Of a stretch of 64,000 nt of DNA, positions 158-61,242 are shown one piece after another. The notes under the pieces are model-generated. The model did no database searches. It was not told the origin of the DNA and saw only the letters and a list, made by a program, of their open reading frames with translations. The position numbers and the translations under genes are program-made. How positions within the stretch are numbered: position 1 is the first letter of the stretch; every line of letters starts with the position of its first letter. Source of the DNA: Escherichia coli (GTDB taxonomy: Bacteria; Pseudomonadota; Gammaproteobacteria; Enterobacterales; Enterobacteriaceae); the NCBI RefSeq assembly GCF_044647545.1, contig NZ_CP172818.1; one strand, 5' to 3'.

Positions 158-178
158 TTTCAGTACTCTAAAATGCCC

Positions 179-227
<49 letters not shown>

Positions 228-390
228 GCATGTATTTGAACGGCGTTTAAAATGGTTTTAAATGAAACTATAATGCGGTAACGATAGGTATTGAAACGCG
301 TGATGAAATTAAATGCTACAACGTTATACGACGAACTCAAAGGCAAGGTGATTTGACTTCCTGATCACGAAGTGTTCCGGCCCGGCAGCC

Positions 391-928
391 AAAAGGGGGG
401 AAAAAGCGGCGCGGAAAAAAAAAAAGCGGGAGGGGAAAGGGGGGATAACCGGGGAGCAAAGGCGGCGAAAGCGAAAAACAAAACGCAAACCCACAAACGG
501 AGGGGGGCGAAAGGAGAACAAAAAGAAAAGGCGAAAGAAAAAAACGCAAAACCAACGCGACGAGGAAGGCCCAACCGGCAAAAAAAAAAGCAACGACGGA
601 AAAAAAAGTGAGAAGTGGCAACAAACGGCGCGCAACGCGAAAAAACGTCAGGAACGCCCCAGGAAGGGGTGAGCGGGGCGGGGGGGAAAAACCACCACGC
701 AACAGCGCGGGAGCCGGGGGGGAGAGGCGCCACACAAACGAAGAAGAAGGGAAAAAAAAAAGGAGGGGGGAGAAAGGAAAAGGGAAAAAAGAACGACACA
801 ACGGGGGCGGGGAAACAAGAACCAAAGAGCGCCAAAACAGGAAGGACACAAGGAAAGCGCGTAAACAAGGGCGGATACAAACAAACGGAAACCACAGAGA
901 ACAGACAAGGAGGAAAAAAAAACCAATA
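391..928. repeat. T-depleted purine-rich low-complexity tract (about 8 T in ~540 nt) with several G-run clusters
   Basis: Direct count on the + strand: whole 60-nt lines with zero T (481-600, 721-840); A roughly half, G about 30 percent, C under 20 percent. Minus strand is correspondingly A-free. Confidence 0.95.
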
Positions 929-1199
929 AAGTACGTGTTGAGTTGATTTTCATTTGTTTGTTACCCAGTTGATTTTGCATATCCAGTATTCGGCCTACGC
1001 GAGGGCGCAGGCCGAATCAGATGTCTTACAACAACAATCCGGTGCGACACGTTGTTTTTCGAAGAAGCCCAGGGTCCGTGTTCAGAATAACAGCAAAAAG
1101 GGGGAGGGGATGCGGCACAAAAAAAATCTTTTATCGCCTCTAATTAAGATGAAGTTTTTTCAACTTCCCTGATTTTTCCTCACCATCATTGGTCATTTT

Positions 1200-2469: not shown

Positions 2470-4704
<2,235 letters not shown>

Positions 4705-6347: not shown

Positions 6348-6492
6348 CTGGTTCGTCCGTGAAAATAAGAGTCACAGATTCGACCTTCCGGGCTAACGAT
6401 TGTTCTGTAGAGAAAATGTCCAGAAGCGGATAAAAAATTCCTGAACAACGTGGGAGTTTCAGACATAACTATAAAAATCTCAACACCCCTTT

Positions 6493-6585
6493 GGGAGAGA
6501 GTCAGGGTGAGGAGGAACAGGCCAGCTCCGGGGCGAATAATCACCCTCACCCCGACCCTCTCCCTGAAAGGGCGAGGGGGAAAAA
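6493..6585. repeat. Intergenic palindromic repeat unit (long imperfect inverted repeat)
   Basis: gggagagagtcagggtgagg ... cctcaccccgaccctctccc forms a ~20-bp-arm inverted repeat; resembles a recurring enterobacterial intergenic palindrome family. Confidence 0.5.
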
Positions 6586-6657
6586 CATGCCCGCAGTGAC
6601 GAGTGAGCCACTTTGCCTGATCTCAAACTCCCGGACAAGCCGGGAGTTTGGAGTAGG

Positions 6658-26580: not shown

Positions 26581-26589
26581 GAAATTTTC

Positions 26590-28955
26590 ATCTACTAAAT
26601 TTGATCACCAACCAAAAATAGCACTTCCATATTCATTAATACCGTAAAATCAAGACCGACACGTTTACCAACAACACCAGATATTCAAAACATCAAAAAA
26701 AACATGGCAGAAGTAATTGAAAATAACCAAGGACGAAATCTCGGCACATTTAAAATGATTAATGCAATCGGATATGGGAGAATTAACATGCCATATTAAA
26801 TATTCTCGAAAAGTAGTCCGCTGCTTATCTAAAAGATCATTTCTCTTCAGAAGAAATTTTCAGCGATAACAGGAGCATGGAAGAATAATGGCAACTCCTC
26901 TCTTGAATGTAGAAGGGGACAAGACCCGTCAAGAGGTTAGCTATAACAGACAATAATATAATAATGAAAAATATTAAAGCAAAGTTTGATATTGACCAGA
27001 ACAAAATTTCGGTACCTTACAATAAACACCGTAAGCGGATATTGCCAAATCAGAGAGCGCACAATAAATGAACCGAAGAAGACTACGCAAATCATCAGAA
27101 AAATCAATTTAATCCAAAACTAATTCACCGCGATGCACCCCGTATCCAAAACATTTATCAATTCTGAAGAAAGAAGCATACTCGCGACGACCCCCAACCA
27201 AGAGGTCGGGCACGGAAGACCAGGAGAGGCGTCATAAAAGTATAAAGATAAAACACCAAATATACCAGAATATCAACGTATTAAGTGCGCTTCTAACGAA
27301 CATCTGATGCATGATATCCACAACCCCCGGACCCCGATCGAAGAGGCCCGTGAAGAGAAGAGCAAGACGACACATCCTCTTTAAGATGAAACATGCGAAG
27401 CGCGCTGTAACCCAGAAATGAATCAGTTTTGTTCGGCGAAGACTAAAAGACCGATCGGAACCGGAAATCTAAAACCTTACTCGGAATACAAGCAGTTGAT
27501 CGAAGAAAAGTATATCGATTTTATACCGAAGATGATTAAACCGCAGGCAATAATATCGGGATGAAACAAAATCCCGATCATGACACGCATCATCACCTAA
27601 CTCCCACGCACAGCCCTTCAGATATAACCACTGAGGATTATCCCCGTTCTTGAAGGTAGATCTCACGCTTCCAAACATACGGAATGTTATCGGCGGATTC
27701 ACAATATATGAAGTCATCCCGAATACCTGCCGCGCGAGGAAAACATATCACCAAGGCAAGCAATTAAGCGAAGAGCAGCCTATCAACAAAAATCGCACGA
27801 CGAATATCCATATAACCCGGATTACCTCCACGTACACAATCCAATATGGCATATCTTGGAAAGGACATAACAGTTCGCATAATCATTCACTTCAAACGCA
27901 TCTAATCCATTCATTCCCCTAAATATTTAAAAATGGATGCCGAACTTTCAACTACAGGAGCACAAGGAATAGCAACAAAAAAGGCTTGATCCGACACTAA
28001 TACCTGGCGCATCAATGAAGGTGGGAATCATCAATTCCATCGACCGTTCCTCAGTAATCCTTCAATCAAAAAGATCGTCGAAAGATACGAATGACCCCGA
28101 CTGAATTCCCCTCTCACCACTCGGAGATGGCACTTTTCCGTACACGGAATAACAGAACGCCCAACCAGTATCTGGATAGACAGCTTATCCACAAGAATAC
28201 TTAAAGACCCAAAAATAGAATTCGGGGCATTAATCCGTGCAGCAACAAAAAAACTGCAATCGATTAGCCGTATTATTACAATAACTATCGGTTTATTAAT
28301 TATGGAGGCGACAGTTAATTCCCCCGACCGAACCTAACACAGACTGGTAGGCGAAAAGAAAATTGGAGAGGAAGGATTATCGGAGATTTAACTCAGCGAC
28401 TGTTATCTCTGCGGTTATTCTGTCCCCATCGTTTTTAATAACGCATTTCGCTTTTTTCCTACACCCATTTGTCCCACTAATAGTTTTGGGCGGGGGCCTT
28501 TTATTCTCGGCAGCGATGCAGACATGAACAGAAATGATTAATGCTGATCGCCACGCTATTTAGACGCCGACCGGGCGGAGAAGCGGAGAACCGCCATTTA
28601 TTCCGGTGGGAGGAAGACCGAACAACGAACGGTATGGGCAGAAAGAACCCCCCCCACGGCCCAGGGGGTATTTTACACATCAATCGTGATCTGCCGCGCG
28701 CATGCCCCTGCAACACCTGTATTGAGATAGCTGCCGTTGATCTGGCTCGAAATATTGTCACACCTCGATTCCTTCCCCCATTAACTATTTTCACCCGAAA
28801 CTACGACCCGAAACCGTAAAACTATTCTTTAACCATTACACGTCTTCGTCAATCCCCCCCACCCACTTACTTTATCTCAACCTTTCTGCATTTTCCGGAA
28901 ACCAGGGGATTGCAGATTAACAAAATGGCTTCCATCGCCGGGATTCAAAACTTTG
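26590..28955. other. ~2.3-kb ORF-free, A-rich / G-poor block of unknown origin between argH and oxyS
   Basis: No ORF of 60 aa or more with a plausible start/RBS on either strand (only four overlapping 82-97 aa frames); sampled 100 nt at 27001-27100 counts A44 C22 G17 T17; the K-12 argH-oxyS spacer is ~60 bp from memory. Boundaries approximate. Confidence 0.85.
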
Positions 28956-28964
28956 GCAAAAAAA

Positions 28965-37338: not shown

Positions 37339-38880
<1,542 letters not shown>

Positions 38881-38958
38881 CCTTAAAGAAGCGTACTTTG
38901 AAGTGCTCACACAGATTGTCTGATAGAAAGTGAAAAGCAAGGCGTAAGCAGACGATAC

Positions 38959-39034
38959 GTCCCCTTCGTCTAGAGGCCCAGGACACCGCCCTTTCACGGC
39001 GGTAACAGGGGTTCGAATCCCCTAGGGGACGCCA
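38959..39034 (+). tRNA. gltT: tRNA-Glu (anticodon UUC) in the 16S-23S spacer
   Basis: gtccccttcgtctagaggcccaggacaccgccctttcacggcggtaacaggggttcgaatcccctaggggacgcca, 76 nt. Confidence 0.95.
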
Positions 39035-39229
39035 CTTGCTGGTTTGTGAGTGAAAGTCACCTGCCTTAATATCTCAAAACTCATCTTCGGGTGACGTTTG
39101 AGATATTTGCTCTTTAAAAATCTGGATCAAGCTGAAAATTGAAACACTGAATAGTCGAAAGATTATTCGTGAGTCTCTCAAATTTTCGCAACACGATGAT
39201 GAATCGAAAGAAACATCTTCGGGTTGTGA

Positions 39230-42134
<2,905 letters not shown>

Positions 42135-55651: not shown

Positions 55652-58600
55652 GTGAAAGATTTATTAAAGTTTCTGAAAGCGCAGACTAAAACCGAAGAGT
55701 TTGATGCGATCAAAATTGCTCTGGCTTCGCCAGACATGATCCGTTCATGGTCTTTCGGTGAAGTTAAAAAGCCGGAAACCATCAACTACCGTACGTTCAA
55801 ACCAGAACGTGACGGCCTTTTCTGCGCCCGTATCTTTGGGCCGGTAAAAGATTACGAGTGCCTGTGCGGTAAGTACAAGCGCCTGAAACACCGTGGCGTC
55901 ATCTGTGAGAAGTGCGGCGTTGAAGTGACCCAGACTAAAGTACGCCGTGAGCGTATGGGCCACATCGAACTGGCTTCCCCGACTGCGCACATCTGGTTCC
56001 TGAAATCGCTGCCGTCCCGTATCGGCCTGCTGCTCGATATGCCGCTGCGCGATATCGAACGCGTACTGTACTTCGAATCCTATGTGGTTATCGAAGGCGG
56101 TATGACCAACCTGGAACGTCAGCAGATCCTGACTGAAGAGCAGTATCTGGACGCGCTGGAAGAGTTCGGTGACGAATTCGACGCGAAGATGGGTGCGGAA
56201 GCAATCCAGGCTCTACTGAAGAGCATGGATCTGGAGCAAGAGTGCGAACAGCTGCGTGAAGAGCTGAACGAAACCAACTCCGAAACCAAGCGTAAAAAGC
56301 TGACCAAGCGTATCAAACTGCTGGAAGCGTTCGTTCAGTCTGGTAACAAACCAGAGTGGATGATCCTGACCGTTCTGCCGGTACTGCCGCCAGATCTGCG
56401 TCCGCTGGTTCCGCTGGATGGTGGTCGTTTCGCGACTTCTGACCTGAACGATCTGTATCGTCGCGTCATTAACCGTAACAACCGTCTGAAACGTCTGCTG
56501 GATCTGGCTGCGCCGGACATCATCGTACGTAACGAAAAACGTATGCTGCAGGAAGCGGTAGACGCCCTGCTGGATAACGGTCGTCGCGGTCGTGCAATCA
56601 CCGGTTCTAACAAGCGTCCTCTGAAATCTTTGGCCGACATGATCAAAGGTAAACAGGGTCGTTTCCGTCAGAACCTGCTCGGTAAGCGTGTTGACTACTC
56701 CGGTCGTTCTGTAATCACCGTAGGTCCATACCTGCGTCTGCATCAGTGCGGTCTGCCGAAGAAAATGGCGCTGGAGCTGTTCAAACCGTTCATCTACGGC
56801 AAGCTGGAACTGCGTGGTCTTGCTACCACCATCAAAGCTGCGAAGAAAATGGTTGAGCGCGAAGAAGCTGTCGTTTGGGATATCCTGGACGAAGTTATCC
56901 GCGAACACCCGGTACTGCTGAACCGTGCACCGACTCTGCACCGTCTGGGTATCCAGGCATTTGAACCGGTACTGATCGAAGGTAAAGCTATCCAGCTGCA
57001 CCCGCTGGTTTGTGCGGCATATAACGCCGACTTCGATGGTGACCAGATGGCTGTTCACGTACCGCTGACGCTGGAAGCCCAGCTCGAAGCGCGTGCGCTG
57101 ATGATGTCTACCAACAACATCCTGTCCCCGGCGAACGGCGAACCAATCATCGTTCCGTCTCAGGACGTTGTACTGGGTCTGTACTACATGACCCGCGACT
57201 GTGTTAACGCCAAAGGCGAAGGCATGGTGCTGACTGGCCCGAAAGAAGCAGAACGTCTGTATCGCTCTGGTCTGGCTTCTCTGCATGCGCGCGTTAAAGT
57301 GCGTATCACCGAGTATGAAAAAGATGCTAACGGTGAATTAGTGGCGAAAACCAGCCTGAAAGACACGACTGTTGGCCGTGCCATTCTGTGGATGATTGTA
57401 CCGAAAGGTCTGCCTTACACCATCGTCAACCAGGCGCTGGGTAAAAAAGCAATCTCCAAAATGCTGAACACCTGCTACCGCATTCTCGGTCTGAAACCGA
57501 CCGTTATTTTTGCGGACCAGATCATGTATACCGGCTTTGCATATGCAGCGCGTTCTGGTGCATCTGTTGGTATCGATGACATGGTCATCCCGGAGAAGAA
57601 ACACGAAATCATCTCCGAGGCAGAAGCAGAAGTTGCTGAAATTCAGGAGCAGTTCCAGTCTGGTCTGGTAACTGCGGGCGAACGCTACAACAAAGTTATC
57701 GATATCTGGGCTGCGGCGAACGATCGTGTATCCAAAGCGATGATGGATAACCTGCAAACTGAAACCGTTATTAACCGTGACGGTCAGGAAGAGAAGCAGG
57801 TTTCCTTCAACAGCATCTACATGATGGCCGACTCCGGTGCGCGTGGTTCTGCGGCACAGATTCGTCAGCTTGCTGGTATGCGTGGTCTGATGGCGAAGCC
57901 GGATGGCTCCATCATCGAAACGCCAATCACCGCGAACTTCCGTGAAGGTCTGAACGTACTCCAGTACTTCATCTCCACCCACGGTGCTCGTAAAGGTCTG
58001 GCGGATACCGCACTGAAAACTGCGAACTCCGGTTACCTGACTCGTCGTCTGGTTGACGTGGCGCAGGACCTGGTGGTTACCGAAGACGATTGTGGTACCC
58101 ATGAAGGTATCATGATGACTCCGGTTATCGAAGGTGGTGACGTTAAAGAGCCGCTGCGCGATCGCGTACTGGGTCGTGTAACTGCTGAAGACGTTCTGAA
58201 GCCGGGTACTGCTGATATCCTCGTTCCGCGCAACACGCTGCTGCACGAACAGTGGTGTGACCTGCTGGAAGAGAACTCTGTCGACGCGGTTAAAGTACGT
58301 TCTGTTGTATCTTGTGACACCGACTTTGGTGTATGTGCGCACTGCTACGGTCGTGACCTGGCGCGTGGCCACCTCATCAACAAAGGTGAAGCAATCGGTG
58401 TTATCGCGGCACAGTCCATCGGTGAACCGGGTACACAGCTGACCATGCGTACGTTCCACATCGGTGGTGCGGCATCTCGTGCGGCTGCTGAATCCAGCAT
58501 CCAGGTGAAAAACAAAGGTAGCATCAAGCTCAGCAACGTGAAGTCGGTTGTGAACTCCAGCGGTAAACTGGTTATCACTTCCCGTAACACCGAACTGAAA

Positions 58601-59875
58601 CTGATCGACGAATTCGGTCGTACCAAAGAAAGCTACAAAGTACCTTACGGTGCGGTACTGGCGAAAGGCGATGGCGAACAGGTTGCTGGCGGCGAAACCG
58701 TTGCAAACTGGGACCCGCACACCATGCCGGTTATCACCGAAGTAAGCGGTTTTGTACGCTTTACTGACATGATCGACGGCCAGACCATTACTCGTCAGAC
58801 CGACGAATTGACCGGTCTGTCTTCGCTGGTGGTTCTGGATTCCGCAGAACGTACCGCAGGTGGTAAAGATCTGCGTCCGGCACTGAAAATCGTTGATGCT
58901 CAGGGTAACGACGTTCTGATCCCGGGTACCGATATGCCTGCGCAGTACTTCCTGCCGGGTAAAGCGATTGTTCAGCTGGAAGATGGCGTACAGATCAGCT
59001 CTGGTGACACCCTGGCGCGTATTCCGCAGGAATCCGGCGGTACCAAGGACATCACCGGTGGTCTGCCGCGCGTTGCGGACCTGTTCGAAGCACGTCGTCC
59101 GAAAGAGCCGGCAATCCTGGCTGAAATCAGCGGTATCGTTTCCTTCGGTAAAGAAACCAAAGGTAAACGTCGTCTGGTTATCACCCCGGTAGACGGTAGC
59201 GATCCGTACGAAGAGATGATTCCGAAATGGCGTCAGCTCAACGTGTTCGAAGGTGAACGTGTAGAACGTGGTGACGTAATTTCCGACGGTCCGGAAGCGC
59301 CGCACGACATTCTGCGTCTGCGTGGTGTTCATGCTGTTACTCGTTACATCGTTAACGAAGTACAGGACGTATACCGTCTGCAGGGCGTTAAGATTAACGA
59401 TAAACACATCGAAGTTATCGTTCGTCAGATGCTGCGTAAAGCTACCATCGTTAATGCGGGCAGCTCCGACTTCCTGGAAGGCGAACAGGTTGAATACTCT
59501 CGCGTCAAGATCGCAAACCGCGAACTGGAAGCGAACGGCAAAGTGGGTGCAACTTACTCCCGCGATCTGCTGGGTATCACCAAAGCGTCTCTGGCAACCG
59601 AGTCCTTCATCTCCGCGGCATCGTTCCAGGAGACCACTCGCGTGCTGACCGAAGCAGCCGTTGCGGGCAAACGCGACGAATTGCGCGGCCTGAAAGAGAA
59701 CGTTATCGTGGGTCGTCTGATCCCGGCAGGTACCGGTTACGCGTACCACCAGGATCGTATGCGTCGCCGTGCTGCGGGTGAAGCTCCGGCTGCACCGCAG
59801 GTGACTGCAGAAGACGCATCTGCCAGCCTGGCAGAACTGCTGAACGCAGGTCTGGGCGGTTCTGATAACGAGTAA
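55652..59875 (+). CDS. rpoC: DNA-directed RNA polymerase beta-prime subunit
   Basis: 1407-aa ORF starting at GTG ([33 protein letters not shown]...); NADFDGD catalytic motif present. Confidence 0.98.
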
Positions 59876-59896
59876 TCGTTAATCCGCAAATAACGT

Positions 59897-59922
59897 AAAA
59901 ACCCGCTTCGGCGGTTTTTTTA
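59897..59922 (+). terminator. Intrinsic terminator downstream of rpoC
   Basis: aaaaacccgcttcggcggttttttt: short GC stem with ttcg loop and U-run. Confidence 0.75.
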
Positions 59923-60108
59923 AACAAATCCAGACTTTGCTTCACGGGAAATATTAAGAAAGGCAGGGCGAAACGAGGAAGAAGCTTTTCGCCCTGGACA
60001 ACATTCCTGCTGACGGCACTACCATAAAAAAACACAACGCTTTCAACAACCTTGCGTTTTTCATCTTCCGTAGCGGCTCGGAATAAATTTACGTTGTTAC
60101 ATTCTGTT

Positions 60109-61242
60109 TCATGGCCTTTGCGAGGCGCGTCCCAGATAGCTGTCCCAGTCTTTCCATACCGGCTGCAAACCCTGAGCAGTTAACGCGGCAGCAACCGCTT
60201 CCGGTCTGCGATCGTCGTGCGGTGAGAACTGTTCCAGCTCGGGGTGATTGTCGGCATAGCCACCTGGCTGCGTTTTCGAAAAAGCGCTGACGTTATTAAT
60301 TGCCAGCGGAATCACGCGATCGCGAAACCACGGTGATTCCCGCGTGGAGAGTGACAGTTCAATCTCCGGTGCAAGCAGTCGGAAGGCGCAGATGGTTTGC
60401 ACTAACTGGCGTTCATCCATAATCGACGCAGGCTCAATGCCGCCAGTACATGGACGCAGGCGTGGGAAGGAGACAGAGTAGCGGCTTTGCCAGTAATGCT
60501 GTTGCAGCCATAGCAAATGTTCTGCAACCATATAGCAGTCAACGCGCCAGCTGTCGGAAAGGCCAATTAGCGCGCCGAGGCCTATCTTATCAATCCCCGC
60601 ACGGCCCAGCCGATCCGGCGTTTCCAGCCGCCAGAAGAAGTCCTGTTTTTTGCCTTTCAGATGATGGCGGGCATAAGTCGCCTCGTGATATGTCTCCTGA
60701 TAAACCATCACGCCATCGAGACCCAGCTGTTTTAGCTCGGCATATTCCGCCTCCGCCAGCGGTTGCACTTCCATCTGTAGTGAAGAGAACTGTTCACGCA
60801 GGGCAGGGAGATGACGACGAAAGTAATCCATCCCCACTTTCGCCTGATGTTCACCAGTGACTAAAAGCAGATGTTCAAAGCCCATCTCCCGTATAGCGGC
60901 GCTTTCCCTGGCAATATCCGCTTCATCCAGTGTTTTGCGCTTGATGCGATTGCTCATGGAAAATCCGCAGTACGTGCAGTCGTTAGCGCAAAGATTGGAA
61001 AGATAAAGCGGGACGTAGAAACTAACTGTGTTGCCAAATCGCTGACGGGTCAGACGCTGCGCTCGCTGGGCCAGTGGTTCCAGATAGCCACTGGCGGCGG
61101 GTGATAGCAATGCCATCATGTCGTCGCGGGTGAGTTGCGAGGCATTTAGCGCCCGCTCTACGTCAGCAGCCGTTTTGCCGTTGATACGCAGGCGGATGTC
61201 GTCCCAGTCCAGTTGTCGCCAGCGATCGCTGAAGGTTTTCAT
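60109..61242 (-). CDS. thiH: 2-iminoacetate synthase (thiazole biosynthesis, radical SAM)
   Basis: 377-aa [35 protein letters not shown]...; CANDCTYC radical-SAM motif. Confidence 0.95.

What the first reader, a model, noticed from the sequence alone, without database searches (positions are those of the whole stretch)
59876..60108. rpoC-thiH spacer is only ~230 bp; the small gene expected here in K-12 (yjaZ/htrC) is absent
From memory, K-12 carries a ~180-codon gene (yjaZ, historically htrC) on the + strand immediately downstream of rpoC and before the convergent thiH. Here the rpoC terminator (59897-59922) is followed within ~190 bp by the thiH stop (60109), and no ORF fits. This may be a strain-specific deletion or an edit; it is a second structural difference from K-12 in the window.
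Basis: partly seen in the sequence, partly recalled or inferred. Interest (0 to 1): 0.35.

Follow-up and report, generated by a model that had tools for sequence, protein, structure and literature searches.

The report
Common yjaZ-less rpoC–thiH spacer, garbled junction
The missing yjaZ gene is ordinary: about 31% of complete E. coli genomes, including the lineage this window matches, lack it, and only a 28-base junction stretch is odd, probably a sequence artefact.

Summary
rpoC ends at 59875, thiH (minus strand) ends at 60109, and the 233-bp spacer holds no yjaZ. The cassette also carries the sRNA sroH, which the window lacks too.

The absence is not a strain-specific deletion or an edit. 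The cassette is missing from 1,685 of 5,426 complete E. coli genomes (31%), and 1,629 of them show the same contiguous short spacer. Outside the rRNA operon and the garbled stretches listed below, the window is base-for-base identical to ST648-type strains such as FDAARGOS_497, which naturally lack yjaZ.

One thing is unusual. At 59913-59940, 17 differences (net -8 bp) separate the window from every natural short allele. They include the loss of one G from the rpoC terminator stem, which takes the fold from -15.5 to -7.8 kcal/mol. This junction occurs in none of the 5,426 genomes and in no metagenome contig, whereas the natural junction was found in 13 contigs.

All other non-rRNA differences from ST648 also fall exactly in segments that have no K-12 counterpart, including poly-A junk and a 64%-identity copy of manD-MFS. 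The patch is therefore most likely a technical or synthetic corruption. Interest is low.

The parts
55652..59875 (+). rpoC coding sequence (1407 aa), intact; stop codon TAA at 59873-59875
   Evidence: ORF list. Identical to ST648-type genomes, with no differences inside the CDS. Annotated as rpoC in the matching records.
59897..59921 (+). rpoC (rplKAJL-rpoBC) intrinsic terminator in degraded form: A5, stem CCGC/GCGG with a bulged C, TTCG loop, T7. Natural alleles have CCCGC-TTCG-GCGGG.
   Evidence: Sequence. The window folds at -7.8 kcal/mol (z -1.3) against -15.5 kcal/mol (z -4.1) for the natural allele. The consensus terminator scan finds this hairpin in FDAARGOS_497 (reported on the - strand because its A/T tracts are symmetric) but finds nothing in the window. 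GCGGG is invariant in 8 natural alleles.
59913..59940 (.). Aberrant junction patch with 17 differing columns relative to the natural short allele (9 substitutions and 8 deleted bases). Window: GGCGG-TTTTTTT-AAACAAATCCAGACTTTGC-TTCACGG. Natural: GGCGGG-TTTTTTT-ATGGGTGTTATTCAGAGGGCAAAGTC-TTCACGG.
   Evidence: Base-by-base differences and the alignment of 6 natural short alleles. The junction is absent from 5,426 complete genomes and from metagenome contigs, with a positive control. It contains CAGACTTTGC, which otherwise occurs in the right flank of the yjaZ-bearing alleles.
59946..59995 (-). Terminator of thiH (thiCEFSGH operon) on the minus strand: 10-bp stem (59964-59973 paired with 59986-59995) followed by GCCUUUCUUAAUAUUUCC. 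Intact and identical to natural alleles.
   Evidence: Fold of -15 kcal/mol. Invariant in alignments A1 and A2. The same 42-mer is conserved in E. whittamii and in Escherichia sp. MOD1-EC7003.
59996..60108 (-). thiH 3' untranslated region, identical to the ST648 type and nearly invariant among alleles
   Evidence: Alignment A2. No differences from FDAARGOS_497.
60109..61242 (-). thiH coding sequence (377 aa), intact
   Evidence: ORF list and annotation of the matching records.

Best explanation
The 233-bp spacer is the ordinary 'empty' allele of a variable site between two convergent operons, rplKAJL-rpoBC and thiCEFSGH. K-12-type genomes carry a ~930-bp, low-GC accessory cassette there, made of yjaZ/htrC plus the convergent sRNA gene sroH. 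About 31% of E. coli genomes carry nothing there, including the ST648-type lineage that the window otherwise reproduces base for base. In those genomes the rpoC terminator is separated from the thiH terminator and 3'UTR by only a ~25-nt linker. On established knowledge of intrinsic termination, the spacer's only evident job is to stop the two converging transcripts (inferred; not measured here). The one feature private to this window is a garbled version of that linker, together with the loss of one G from the rpoC terminator stem. It is most likely not biological. It is one of six places where the window departs from the ST648 sequence outside the rRNA operon, and each of them coincides with a segment that has no K-12 counterpart. 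That pattern fits a computationally reconstructed, generated or otherwise corrupted sequence rather than mutation.
For: Shown by tool results:
- K-12 has yjaZ (179 aa) and sroH (Rfam, 201 bits) between rpoC and thiH. The window has neither.
- The cassette is present in 3,741 of 5,426 complete genomes and absent from 1,685. The contiguous short spacer occurs in 1,629 genomes.
- Window 42400-64000 is 99.9% identical to FDAARGOS_497, strain ST648 and others. From 41871 to 64000 the only differences are the 17 columns at 59913-59940.
- Six natural short alleles from diverse strains share a conserved linker that the window lacks.
- The window junction has 0 hits in complete genomes and 0 in metagenome contigs. 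The natural junction has 13 metagenome hits.
- The breakpoints between ST648 and K-12 (reference positions 4024/7035, 12343/12523, 23049/23092, 27946/27951, 32488/35302) coincide with every non-rRNA cluster of window-versus-ST648 differences.
- Window 159-927 contains a ~50-A run and T-depleted junk (7.7% T).
- Within the anomalous segment 26581-28958, window 26678-28760 is a colinear 64%-identity copy of manD-MFS with no ORF longer than 97 aa (shuffled controls score 31 bits or less).
- The other garbled patches also have no natural match (best 87.6% and 90.4%).
- At the edges of these segments the window follows the K-12-type sequence, noisily, rather than the ST648 sequence.
- The cassette is 41.6% GC against 55% in its flanks.
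Against: The collections are not exhaustive. Shigella and draft genomes are not in the E. coli set, so a rare natural allele with this junction cannot be strictly excluded. The artefact reading of the patch rests on pattern (co-location with non-K-12 segments, other clearly unnatural filler), not on read data or provenance. The exact process that produced the corruption is not identified. Reference-anchored reconstruction and generative modelling each explain only part of it. Neither readily explains SNP-perfect ST648 core sequence combined with noisy K-12-like edges of the variable segments.
Confidence: 0.85

Rival explanations
1. The 28-bp patch is a genuine rearrangement private to the strain, within the natural short allele. 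For example, a micro-inversion or template switch near the terminator hairpin that happens to weaken the rpoC terminator.
For: The window 9-mer AGACTTTGC is the reverse complement of GCAAAGTCT in the natural short allele at the same place. Hairpin-adjacent sequence is prone to template switching (general knowledge). The flanks are otherwise perfect.
Against: An inversion alone does not reproduce the window sequence. Extra deletions are needed, and the left part (TGGGTGTT to AACAA) remains unexplained. Seventeen changes in 28 bp against none in the adjacent 22 kb is not a mutational pattern. Five other segments of the window show the same kind of damage, some of it plainly non-biological. There is no natural match in 5,426 genomes or in metagenomes.
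Confidence: 0.08
2. An independent, recent deletion of the yjaZ-sroH cassette from a yjaZ-bearing ancestor. This is the reader's 'strain-specific deletion', comparable to the shorter allele seen in strain BS-01.
For: The patch contains CAGACTTTGC (TCCAGACTTTGC in strain E69), which in cassette-bearing alleles lies just right of the cassette. Strain BS-01 has K-12-identical RpoC and ThiH proteins but a 224-bp spacer, so independent losses probably do occur.
Against: Both flanks, including TTCACGGGAAATATT immediately to the right of the patch, are the ST648 short-allele sequence and not the K-12-type sequence. The surrounding 22 kb is identical to genomes that already lack the cassette. The window is only about 97.5% identical to K-12. 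No cassette remnant is present.
Confidence: 0.04
3. A deliberate engineered deletion or edit of yjaZ in a laboratory strain.
Against: The background is not K-12 but ST648-type, which naturally lacks the gene. There is no scar, FRT site or marker sequence, and the patch is shorter than the natural linker. The same kind of anomaly occurs at five unrelated intergenic or accessory sites.
Confidence: 0.02

Closest known systems
Natural cassette-less rpoC-thiH spacer of ST648-type and ST131-type E. coli (e.g. FDAARGOS_497 NZ_CP033850.1, strain ST648 NZ_CP008697.1, JJ2434 NZ_CP013835.1)
   Same: Same architecture: rpoC stop, terminator, short linker, thiH terminator, thiH 3'UTR, with no yjaZ and no sroH. 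The flanks are identical to FDAARGOS_497 over 22 kb.
   Different: The spacer is 233 bp against 239-241 bp. The linker ATGGGTGTTATTCAGAGGGCAAAGTC is replaced by AAACAAATCCAGACTTTGC. One G is lost from the 3' arm of the terminator.
K-12-type spacer carrying yjaZ (htrC) and sroH (RF00372)
   Same: Same rpoC terminator position and the same thiH terminator and 3'UTR. The window patch shares the 10-mer CAGACTTTGC with the right flank of the K-12 cassette.
   Different: K-12 has about 930 extra bases (41.6% GC) that encode the 179-aa YjaZ and the 161-nt sroH. Both are absent from the window. EcoCyc curators have retracted the original heat-shock designation of yjaZ (PMC11551758).
Strain BS-01 (NZ_CP172816.1) extra-short allele
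   Same: Also lacks the cassette and has a shortened linker. It was the best blastn match to the window junction, at 81.7%.
   Different: It has an intact GCGGG terminator, a different linker (ATACACTTC) and K-12-identical RpoC and ThiH proteins. It is a clean deletion, not a noisy patch.
Other occupants of the same site in other Escherichia
   Same: The same bounding elements are present. The thiH terminator 42-mer is conserved exactly.
   Different: E. whittamii and Escherichia sp. MOD1-EC7003 carry a ~6.6-kb island: a DeoR-PfkB kinase, an NCS1-type permease, an 895-aa protein with no Pfam match and a DUF4867 protein. The divergent strain E69 carries a yjaZ-sroH cassette that is 92% identical to the K-12 cassette.

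Membership tests
K-12-type rpoC-thiH spacer (yjaZ/htrC + sroH cassette) | A ~179-codon yjaZ ORF on the + strand downstream of rpoC | tested here: not met
   tblastn of K-12 YjaZ against the window gives a best E of 0.55 at an unrelated position. The largest ORFs in the spacer are 36 and 43 aa.
K-12-type rpoC-thiH spacer (yjaZ/htrC + sroH cassette) | The sroH sRNA (Rfam RF00372) convergent with yjaZ | tested here: not met
   K-12 scores 201 bits. The window has no match at E<=1 in 59600-60400 and none at gathering score in the whole window.
Natural cassette-less (short) rpoC-thiH spacer allele | A contiguous spacer of ~240 bp between the rpoC and thiH stops, with flanks of a lineage that lacks the cassette | tested here: met
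   The spacer is 233 bp. 1,629 genomes align across it in one piece. The flanks are identical to FDAARGOS_497/ST648.
Natural cassette-less (short) rpoC-thiH spacer allele | The conserved linker ATGGGTGTTATTCAGAGGGC(A)AA(G/T)TC between the two terminators | tested here: not met
   There are 17 differing columns at 59913-59940. The window version is absent from 5,426 genomes and from metagenomes.
Rho-independent (intrinsic) terminator, rpoC | A stable GC-rich hairpin immediately followed by a U-tract | tested here: inconclusive
   The U7 tract is present. The stem is reduced to 4 GC pairs plus a bulge, at -7.8 kcal/mol and z -1.3, against -15.5 kcal/mol and z -4.1 for the natural allele. The consensus scan does not call it but does call the natural hairpin. 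Function cannot be measured with these tools.
Rho-independent (intrinsic) terminator, thiH | A stable hairpin followed by a U-rich tract on the minus strand | tested here: inconclusive
   There is a 10-bp stem at -15 kcal/mol, z -2.8. The sequence is conserved across Escherichia species.

The most novel reading that the evidence does not exclude
The 28-bp junction patch is real DNA in a living strain. It would be a private rearrangement of the linker that also removes one G from the rpoC terminator stem and halves its predicted stability. Transcription from the very highly expressed rpoBC operon could then read through, antisense, into the thiH 3'UTR and coding region, and might dampen thiamine-biosynthesis expression.
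Probability: 0.07. Interest if true: 0.2.

Novelty: already known. Interest (0 to 1): 0.08.

Why it matters
Biologically it matters little. yjaZ/htrC and sroH are dispensable accessory features whose presence or absence is plain from public annotation, and the window carries the common empty allele of its lineage. The practical value is as a caution in two ways. First, differences from K-12 are not evidence of edits, because K-12 is only one of several natural states at this variable site. Second, the window itself is not a faithful natural sequence. Every segment that lacks a K-12 counterpart is garbled. Small anomalies in it, such as the weakened rpoC terminator here, should not be read as biology until its provenance is checked.

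Tried and rejected
- **Rfam on the spacer.** The only hit was a sub-threshold rsmX match (24 bits against a gathering score of 56, E=0.023). It merely reflects the terminator hairpin and also appears in K-12, so I rejected it.
- **sroH as the thiH 3'UTR.** I first assumed this from memory. That was wrong: Rfam places sroH directly downstream of yjaZ, inside the cassette.
- **36-aa minus-strand ORF at 59954-60064.** It runs through the terminator hairpin, and I did not consider it a gene.
- **Micro-inversion as the origin of the patch.** The 9-mer AGACTTTGC is the reverse complement of the natural GCAAAGTCT, but an inversion alone does not regenerate the window sequence.
- **Simple microhomology deletion of the K-12 cassette.** A deletion between ATGG repeats does not give the natural short allele.
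- **The first lenient-scoring BLAST of the manD-MFS filler.** I suspected it was spurious. Re-running with standard scoring and shuffled controls showed the 64% colinear match is real.
- **Literature search for yjaZ/htrC/sroH.** It returned almost nothing relevant beyond the note that the htrC designation was retracted.
- **Not attempted, to spare shared resources.** I did not do a protein-level survey of YjaZ homologues outside Escherichia, and I did not analyse the rRNA-operon differences.

Full report
**1. The observation**

The window has rpoC at 55652-59875 (+, 1407 aa) and thiH at 60109-61242 (-, 377 aa). The spacer 59876-60108 is 233 bp long and holds no ORF longer than 43 aa.

tblastn of K-12 YjaZ against the whole window finds nothing (best E 0.55 at an unrelated site). 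blastn of the K-12 cassette also finds nothing.

**2. What K-12 has at this site**

In K-12 substr. HMS174 (locus L001), yjaZ (annotated 'heat-shock protein C', 179 aa) starts 213 bp after the rpoC stop. thiH ends 409 bp after yjaZ.

Alignment shows a ~930-bp block in K-12. It begins just after the rpoC terminator (…GGCGGGTTTTTTTATGGG|) and ends about 40 bp before the thiH terminator.

Rfam places the sRNA sroH (RF00372, 201 bits) on the minus strand directly after yjaZ. The two share a bidirectional hairpin. The block is therefore a two-gene cassette, and the window lacks sroH as well.

The cassette is 41.6% GC, against about 55% in rpoC and thiH. YjaZ has no Pfam domain. The EcoCyc y-ome paper notes that its htrC designation was retracted (PMC11551758). 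O157 strains carry a copy with an internal 71-bp deletion, annotated as a shorter 'protein HtrC'.

**3. How common the short spacer is**

- The K-12 cassette is found in 3,741 of 5,426 complete E. coli genomes, so 1,685 genomes (31%) lack it.
- A 266-bp query spanning the window's spacer aligns in one piece, covering at least 80%, in 1,629 genomes.
- The annotation of these genomes shows rpoC directly followed by thiH.
- They include strain ST648, the ST131 strain JJ2434 and many human, animal and environmental isolates.

**4. Which genome the window resembles**

Window 42400-64000 matches FDAARGOS_497, strain ST648 and many others at 99.9%. A base-by-base comparison with FDAARGOS_497 shows that from 41871 to 64000 the only differences are 17 alignment columns at 59913-59940. 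These are 9 substitutions and 8 deleted bases.

The window is only about 97-98% identical to K-12. The absence of yjaZ is therefore inherited from a lineage that naturally lacks it. It is not an edit of a K-12-like genome.

**5. The anomalous patch**

Six natural short alleles were aligned: ST648 type, JJ2434, JNE23-011, CUVET21-424, AH21F008 and BS-01. The first five share GGCGGGTTTTTTTATGGGTGTTATTCAGAGGGC(A)AA(G/T)TCTTCACGG, and BS-01 has a clean 17-bp further deletion.

The window instead reads GGCGGTTTTTTTAAACAAATCCAGACTTTGCTTCACGGG.

- No complete E. coli genome has this junction. The best match is 81.7%, to BS-01.
- A 32-mer across it has 0 exact matches in the metagenome contig collection.
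- As a positive control, the natural junction has 13 exact matches there.

The lost G shortens the terminator stem from CCCGC/GCGGG to CCGC/GCGG with a bulged C. The predicted stability falls from -15.5 kcal/mol (z -4.1) to -7.8 kcal/mol (z -1.3). The consensus terminator scan calls the natural hairpin but finds nothing in the window.

The thiH terminator hairpin (-15 kcal/mol) and the 3'UTR are untouched.

The patch contains CAGACTTTGC. In cassette-bearing alleles this 10-mer lies just to the right of the cassette, and strain E69 has the 12-mer TCCAGACTTTGC. The patch therefore looks like a blend of the two natural allele types.

**6. Why the patch is probably not biological**

Comparing the whole window with FDAARGOS_497 gives no differences inside any retained protein-coding gene (annotation). 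Apart from scattered differences in the rRNA operon, all differences fall in six places:

| Window position | Nature of the difference |
|---|---|
| 159-1154 | junk, then a noisy patch upstream of metF |
| 6465-6621 | noisy patch between yijF and gldA |
| 17149 | single-base deletion |
| 22042 | 7-bp deletion |
| 26581-28958 | degraded copy of an accessory island |
| 59913-59940 | the junction patch |

I aligned FDAARGOS_497 to K-12. Its structural breakpoints fall at reference positions 4024/7035, 12343/12523, 23049/23092, 27946/27951 and 32488/35302. These coincide exactly with the first five clusters. The sixth cluster is the linker that is specific to the short allele.

The content of these segments is not natural:

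- Window 159-927 contains a run of about 50 A followed by T-depleted purine-rich filler (7.7% T). It stands where ST648 strains have two genes.
- Within 26581-28958, window 26678-28760 is a colinear copy of the manD-MFS transporter island at 64% identity. The segment has no ORF longer than 97 aa and is A-enriched. With standard scoring this match has E=3e-69, whereas shuffled queries scored 31 bits or less against 749 bits for the real query under lenient scoring.
- No complete genome covers this segment.
- The smaller patches also have no natural counterpart. The best full-length identities are 87.6% and 90.4%.
- At the edges of these segments the window noisily follows the K-12-type sequence rather than the ST648 sequence.

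Thirty-six percent divergence next to genes that are 100% identical cannot arise by mutation. The window is therefore a corrupted, reconstructed or generated derivative of an ST648-type sequence.

I could not identify the process. A K-12-anchored reconstruction with noisy insertion sequence, or a generative sequence model, would each explain parts of the pattern. The junction patch belongs to this class of damage, so I do not interpret the weakened terminator biologically. This step is inference from pattern, with a confidence of about 0.8.

**7. The site in a wider context**

The exact 42-mer of the thiH terminator occurs in three GTDB species representatives.

- 'E. coli E69' is a divergent lineage whose rpoC flank is 97.0% identical to K-12. 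It has a yjaZ-sroH cassette at the same position, 92.1% identical to the K-12 cassette. The cassette is therefore old at this site, and the short allele is more likely a loss. This inference is not settled.
- E. whittamii and Escherichia sp. MOD1-EC7003 carry a different ~6.6-kb island there. It encodes a DeoR-PfkB kinase, an NCS1-type permease, an 895-aa protein with no Pfam match and a DUF4867 protein.
- BS-01 has K-12-identical RpoC and ThiH proteins but a 224-bp spacer. This suggests an independent loss.

The gap between the two convergent terminators is thus a small hotspot of variable content in Escherichia.

**8. Verdict**

The spacer is the common empty allele of a known variable site. 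The only private feature is a 28-bp patch that is most likely an artefact of how this window's sequence was produced. Novelty: already known. Interest: low.

Noticed in passing
window 159-927: Non-natural filler directly after the metL stop: a few K-12-like bases, a run of about 50 A, then about 700 bp of T-depleted purine-rich low-complexity sequence (A 45.6%, T 7.7%). ST648-type genomes have a hypothetical gene and a 5'-nucleotidase gene here (2.8 kb). Only short degraded colinear fragments of them remain.
   Followed up: partly
window 26581-28958: A 2.4-kb segment between argH and oxyS with no ORF longer than 97 aa. Positions 26678-28760 are a colinear, 64%-identity, A-enriched copy of the manD + MFS transporter island of ST648-type genomes. 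Its first ~25 and last ~30 bases noisily follow the K-12-type argH-oxyS spacer instead. No complete E. coli genome covers it.
   Followed up: partly
window 937-1154, 6465-6621, 17149, 22042: Noisy intergenic patches (many single-base deletions and substitutions, plus a 7-bp deletion) relative to FDAARGOS_497. Each lies exactly in a segment where ST648-type sequence has no K-12 counterpart. The two larger patches, 937-1154 and 6465-6621, were searched and have no exact natural match (best 87.6% and 90.4%); the two small differences were not searched. Retained protein-coding genes show no differences at all.
   Followed up: yes
window 38345-41870 (rrnB-type rRNA operon): 26 scattered differing columns (substitutions and small indels) relative to FDAARGOS_497, in the 16S gene (38345-38360), in the spacer around tRNA-Glu (38946-39165) and in the 23S gene (40399-40439, 40649, 41870). 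They could be natural heterogeneity between rrn operons or the same corruption affecting multi-copy sequence.
   Followed up: no
window 59996-60108 (thiH 3'UTR) and 59946-59995 (terminator), minus strand: The ~160 nt between the thiH stop and the end of its terminator are almost invariant among seven E. coli alleles (1 variable column). The last ~25 nt of the thiH coding sequence vary at 5 columns. The terminator 42-mer is identical in E. whittamii. This could reflect selection on the 3'UTR, or simply a small sample.
   Followed up: no
L012 3779-9810 and L013 122-4733 (E. whittamii; Escherichia sp. MOD1-EC7003): These species have a ~6.6-kb island in the rpoC-thiH gap: a DeoR-HTH/PfkB kinase fusion, an NCS1-family permease, an 895-aa protein with no Pfam match and a convergent DUF4867 protein. 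This looks like a nucleoside or sugar utilisation module of unknown specificity.
   Followed up: partly
L004 (E. coli BS-01, NZ_CP172816.1) 1481-1704: A genome with K-12-identical RpoC and ThiH proteins has a 224-bp spacer with no cassette and a linker 17 bp shorter than the common short allele. This suggests an independent loss of yjaZ-sroH.
   Followed up: partly
L003 2189-2632 (O157 AR-0428); H211 (strain 200088): The cassette is decaying in some lineages. O157 strains have a 71-bp internal deletion that truncates yjaZ to a 147-aa 'protein HtrC'. Strain 200088 has an IS1 element inserted in the cassette.
   Followed up: no
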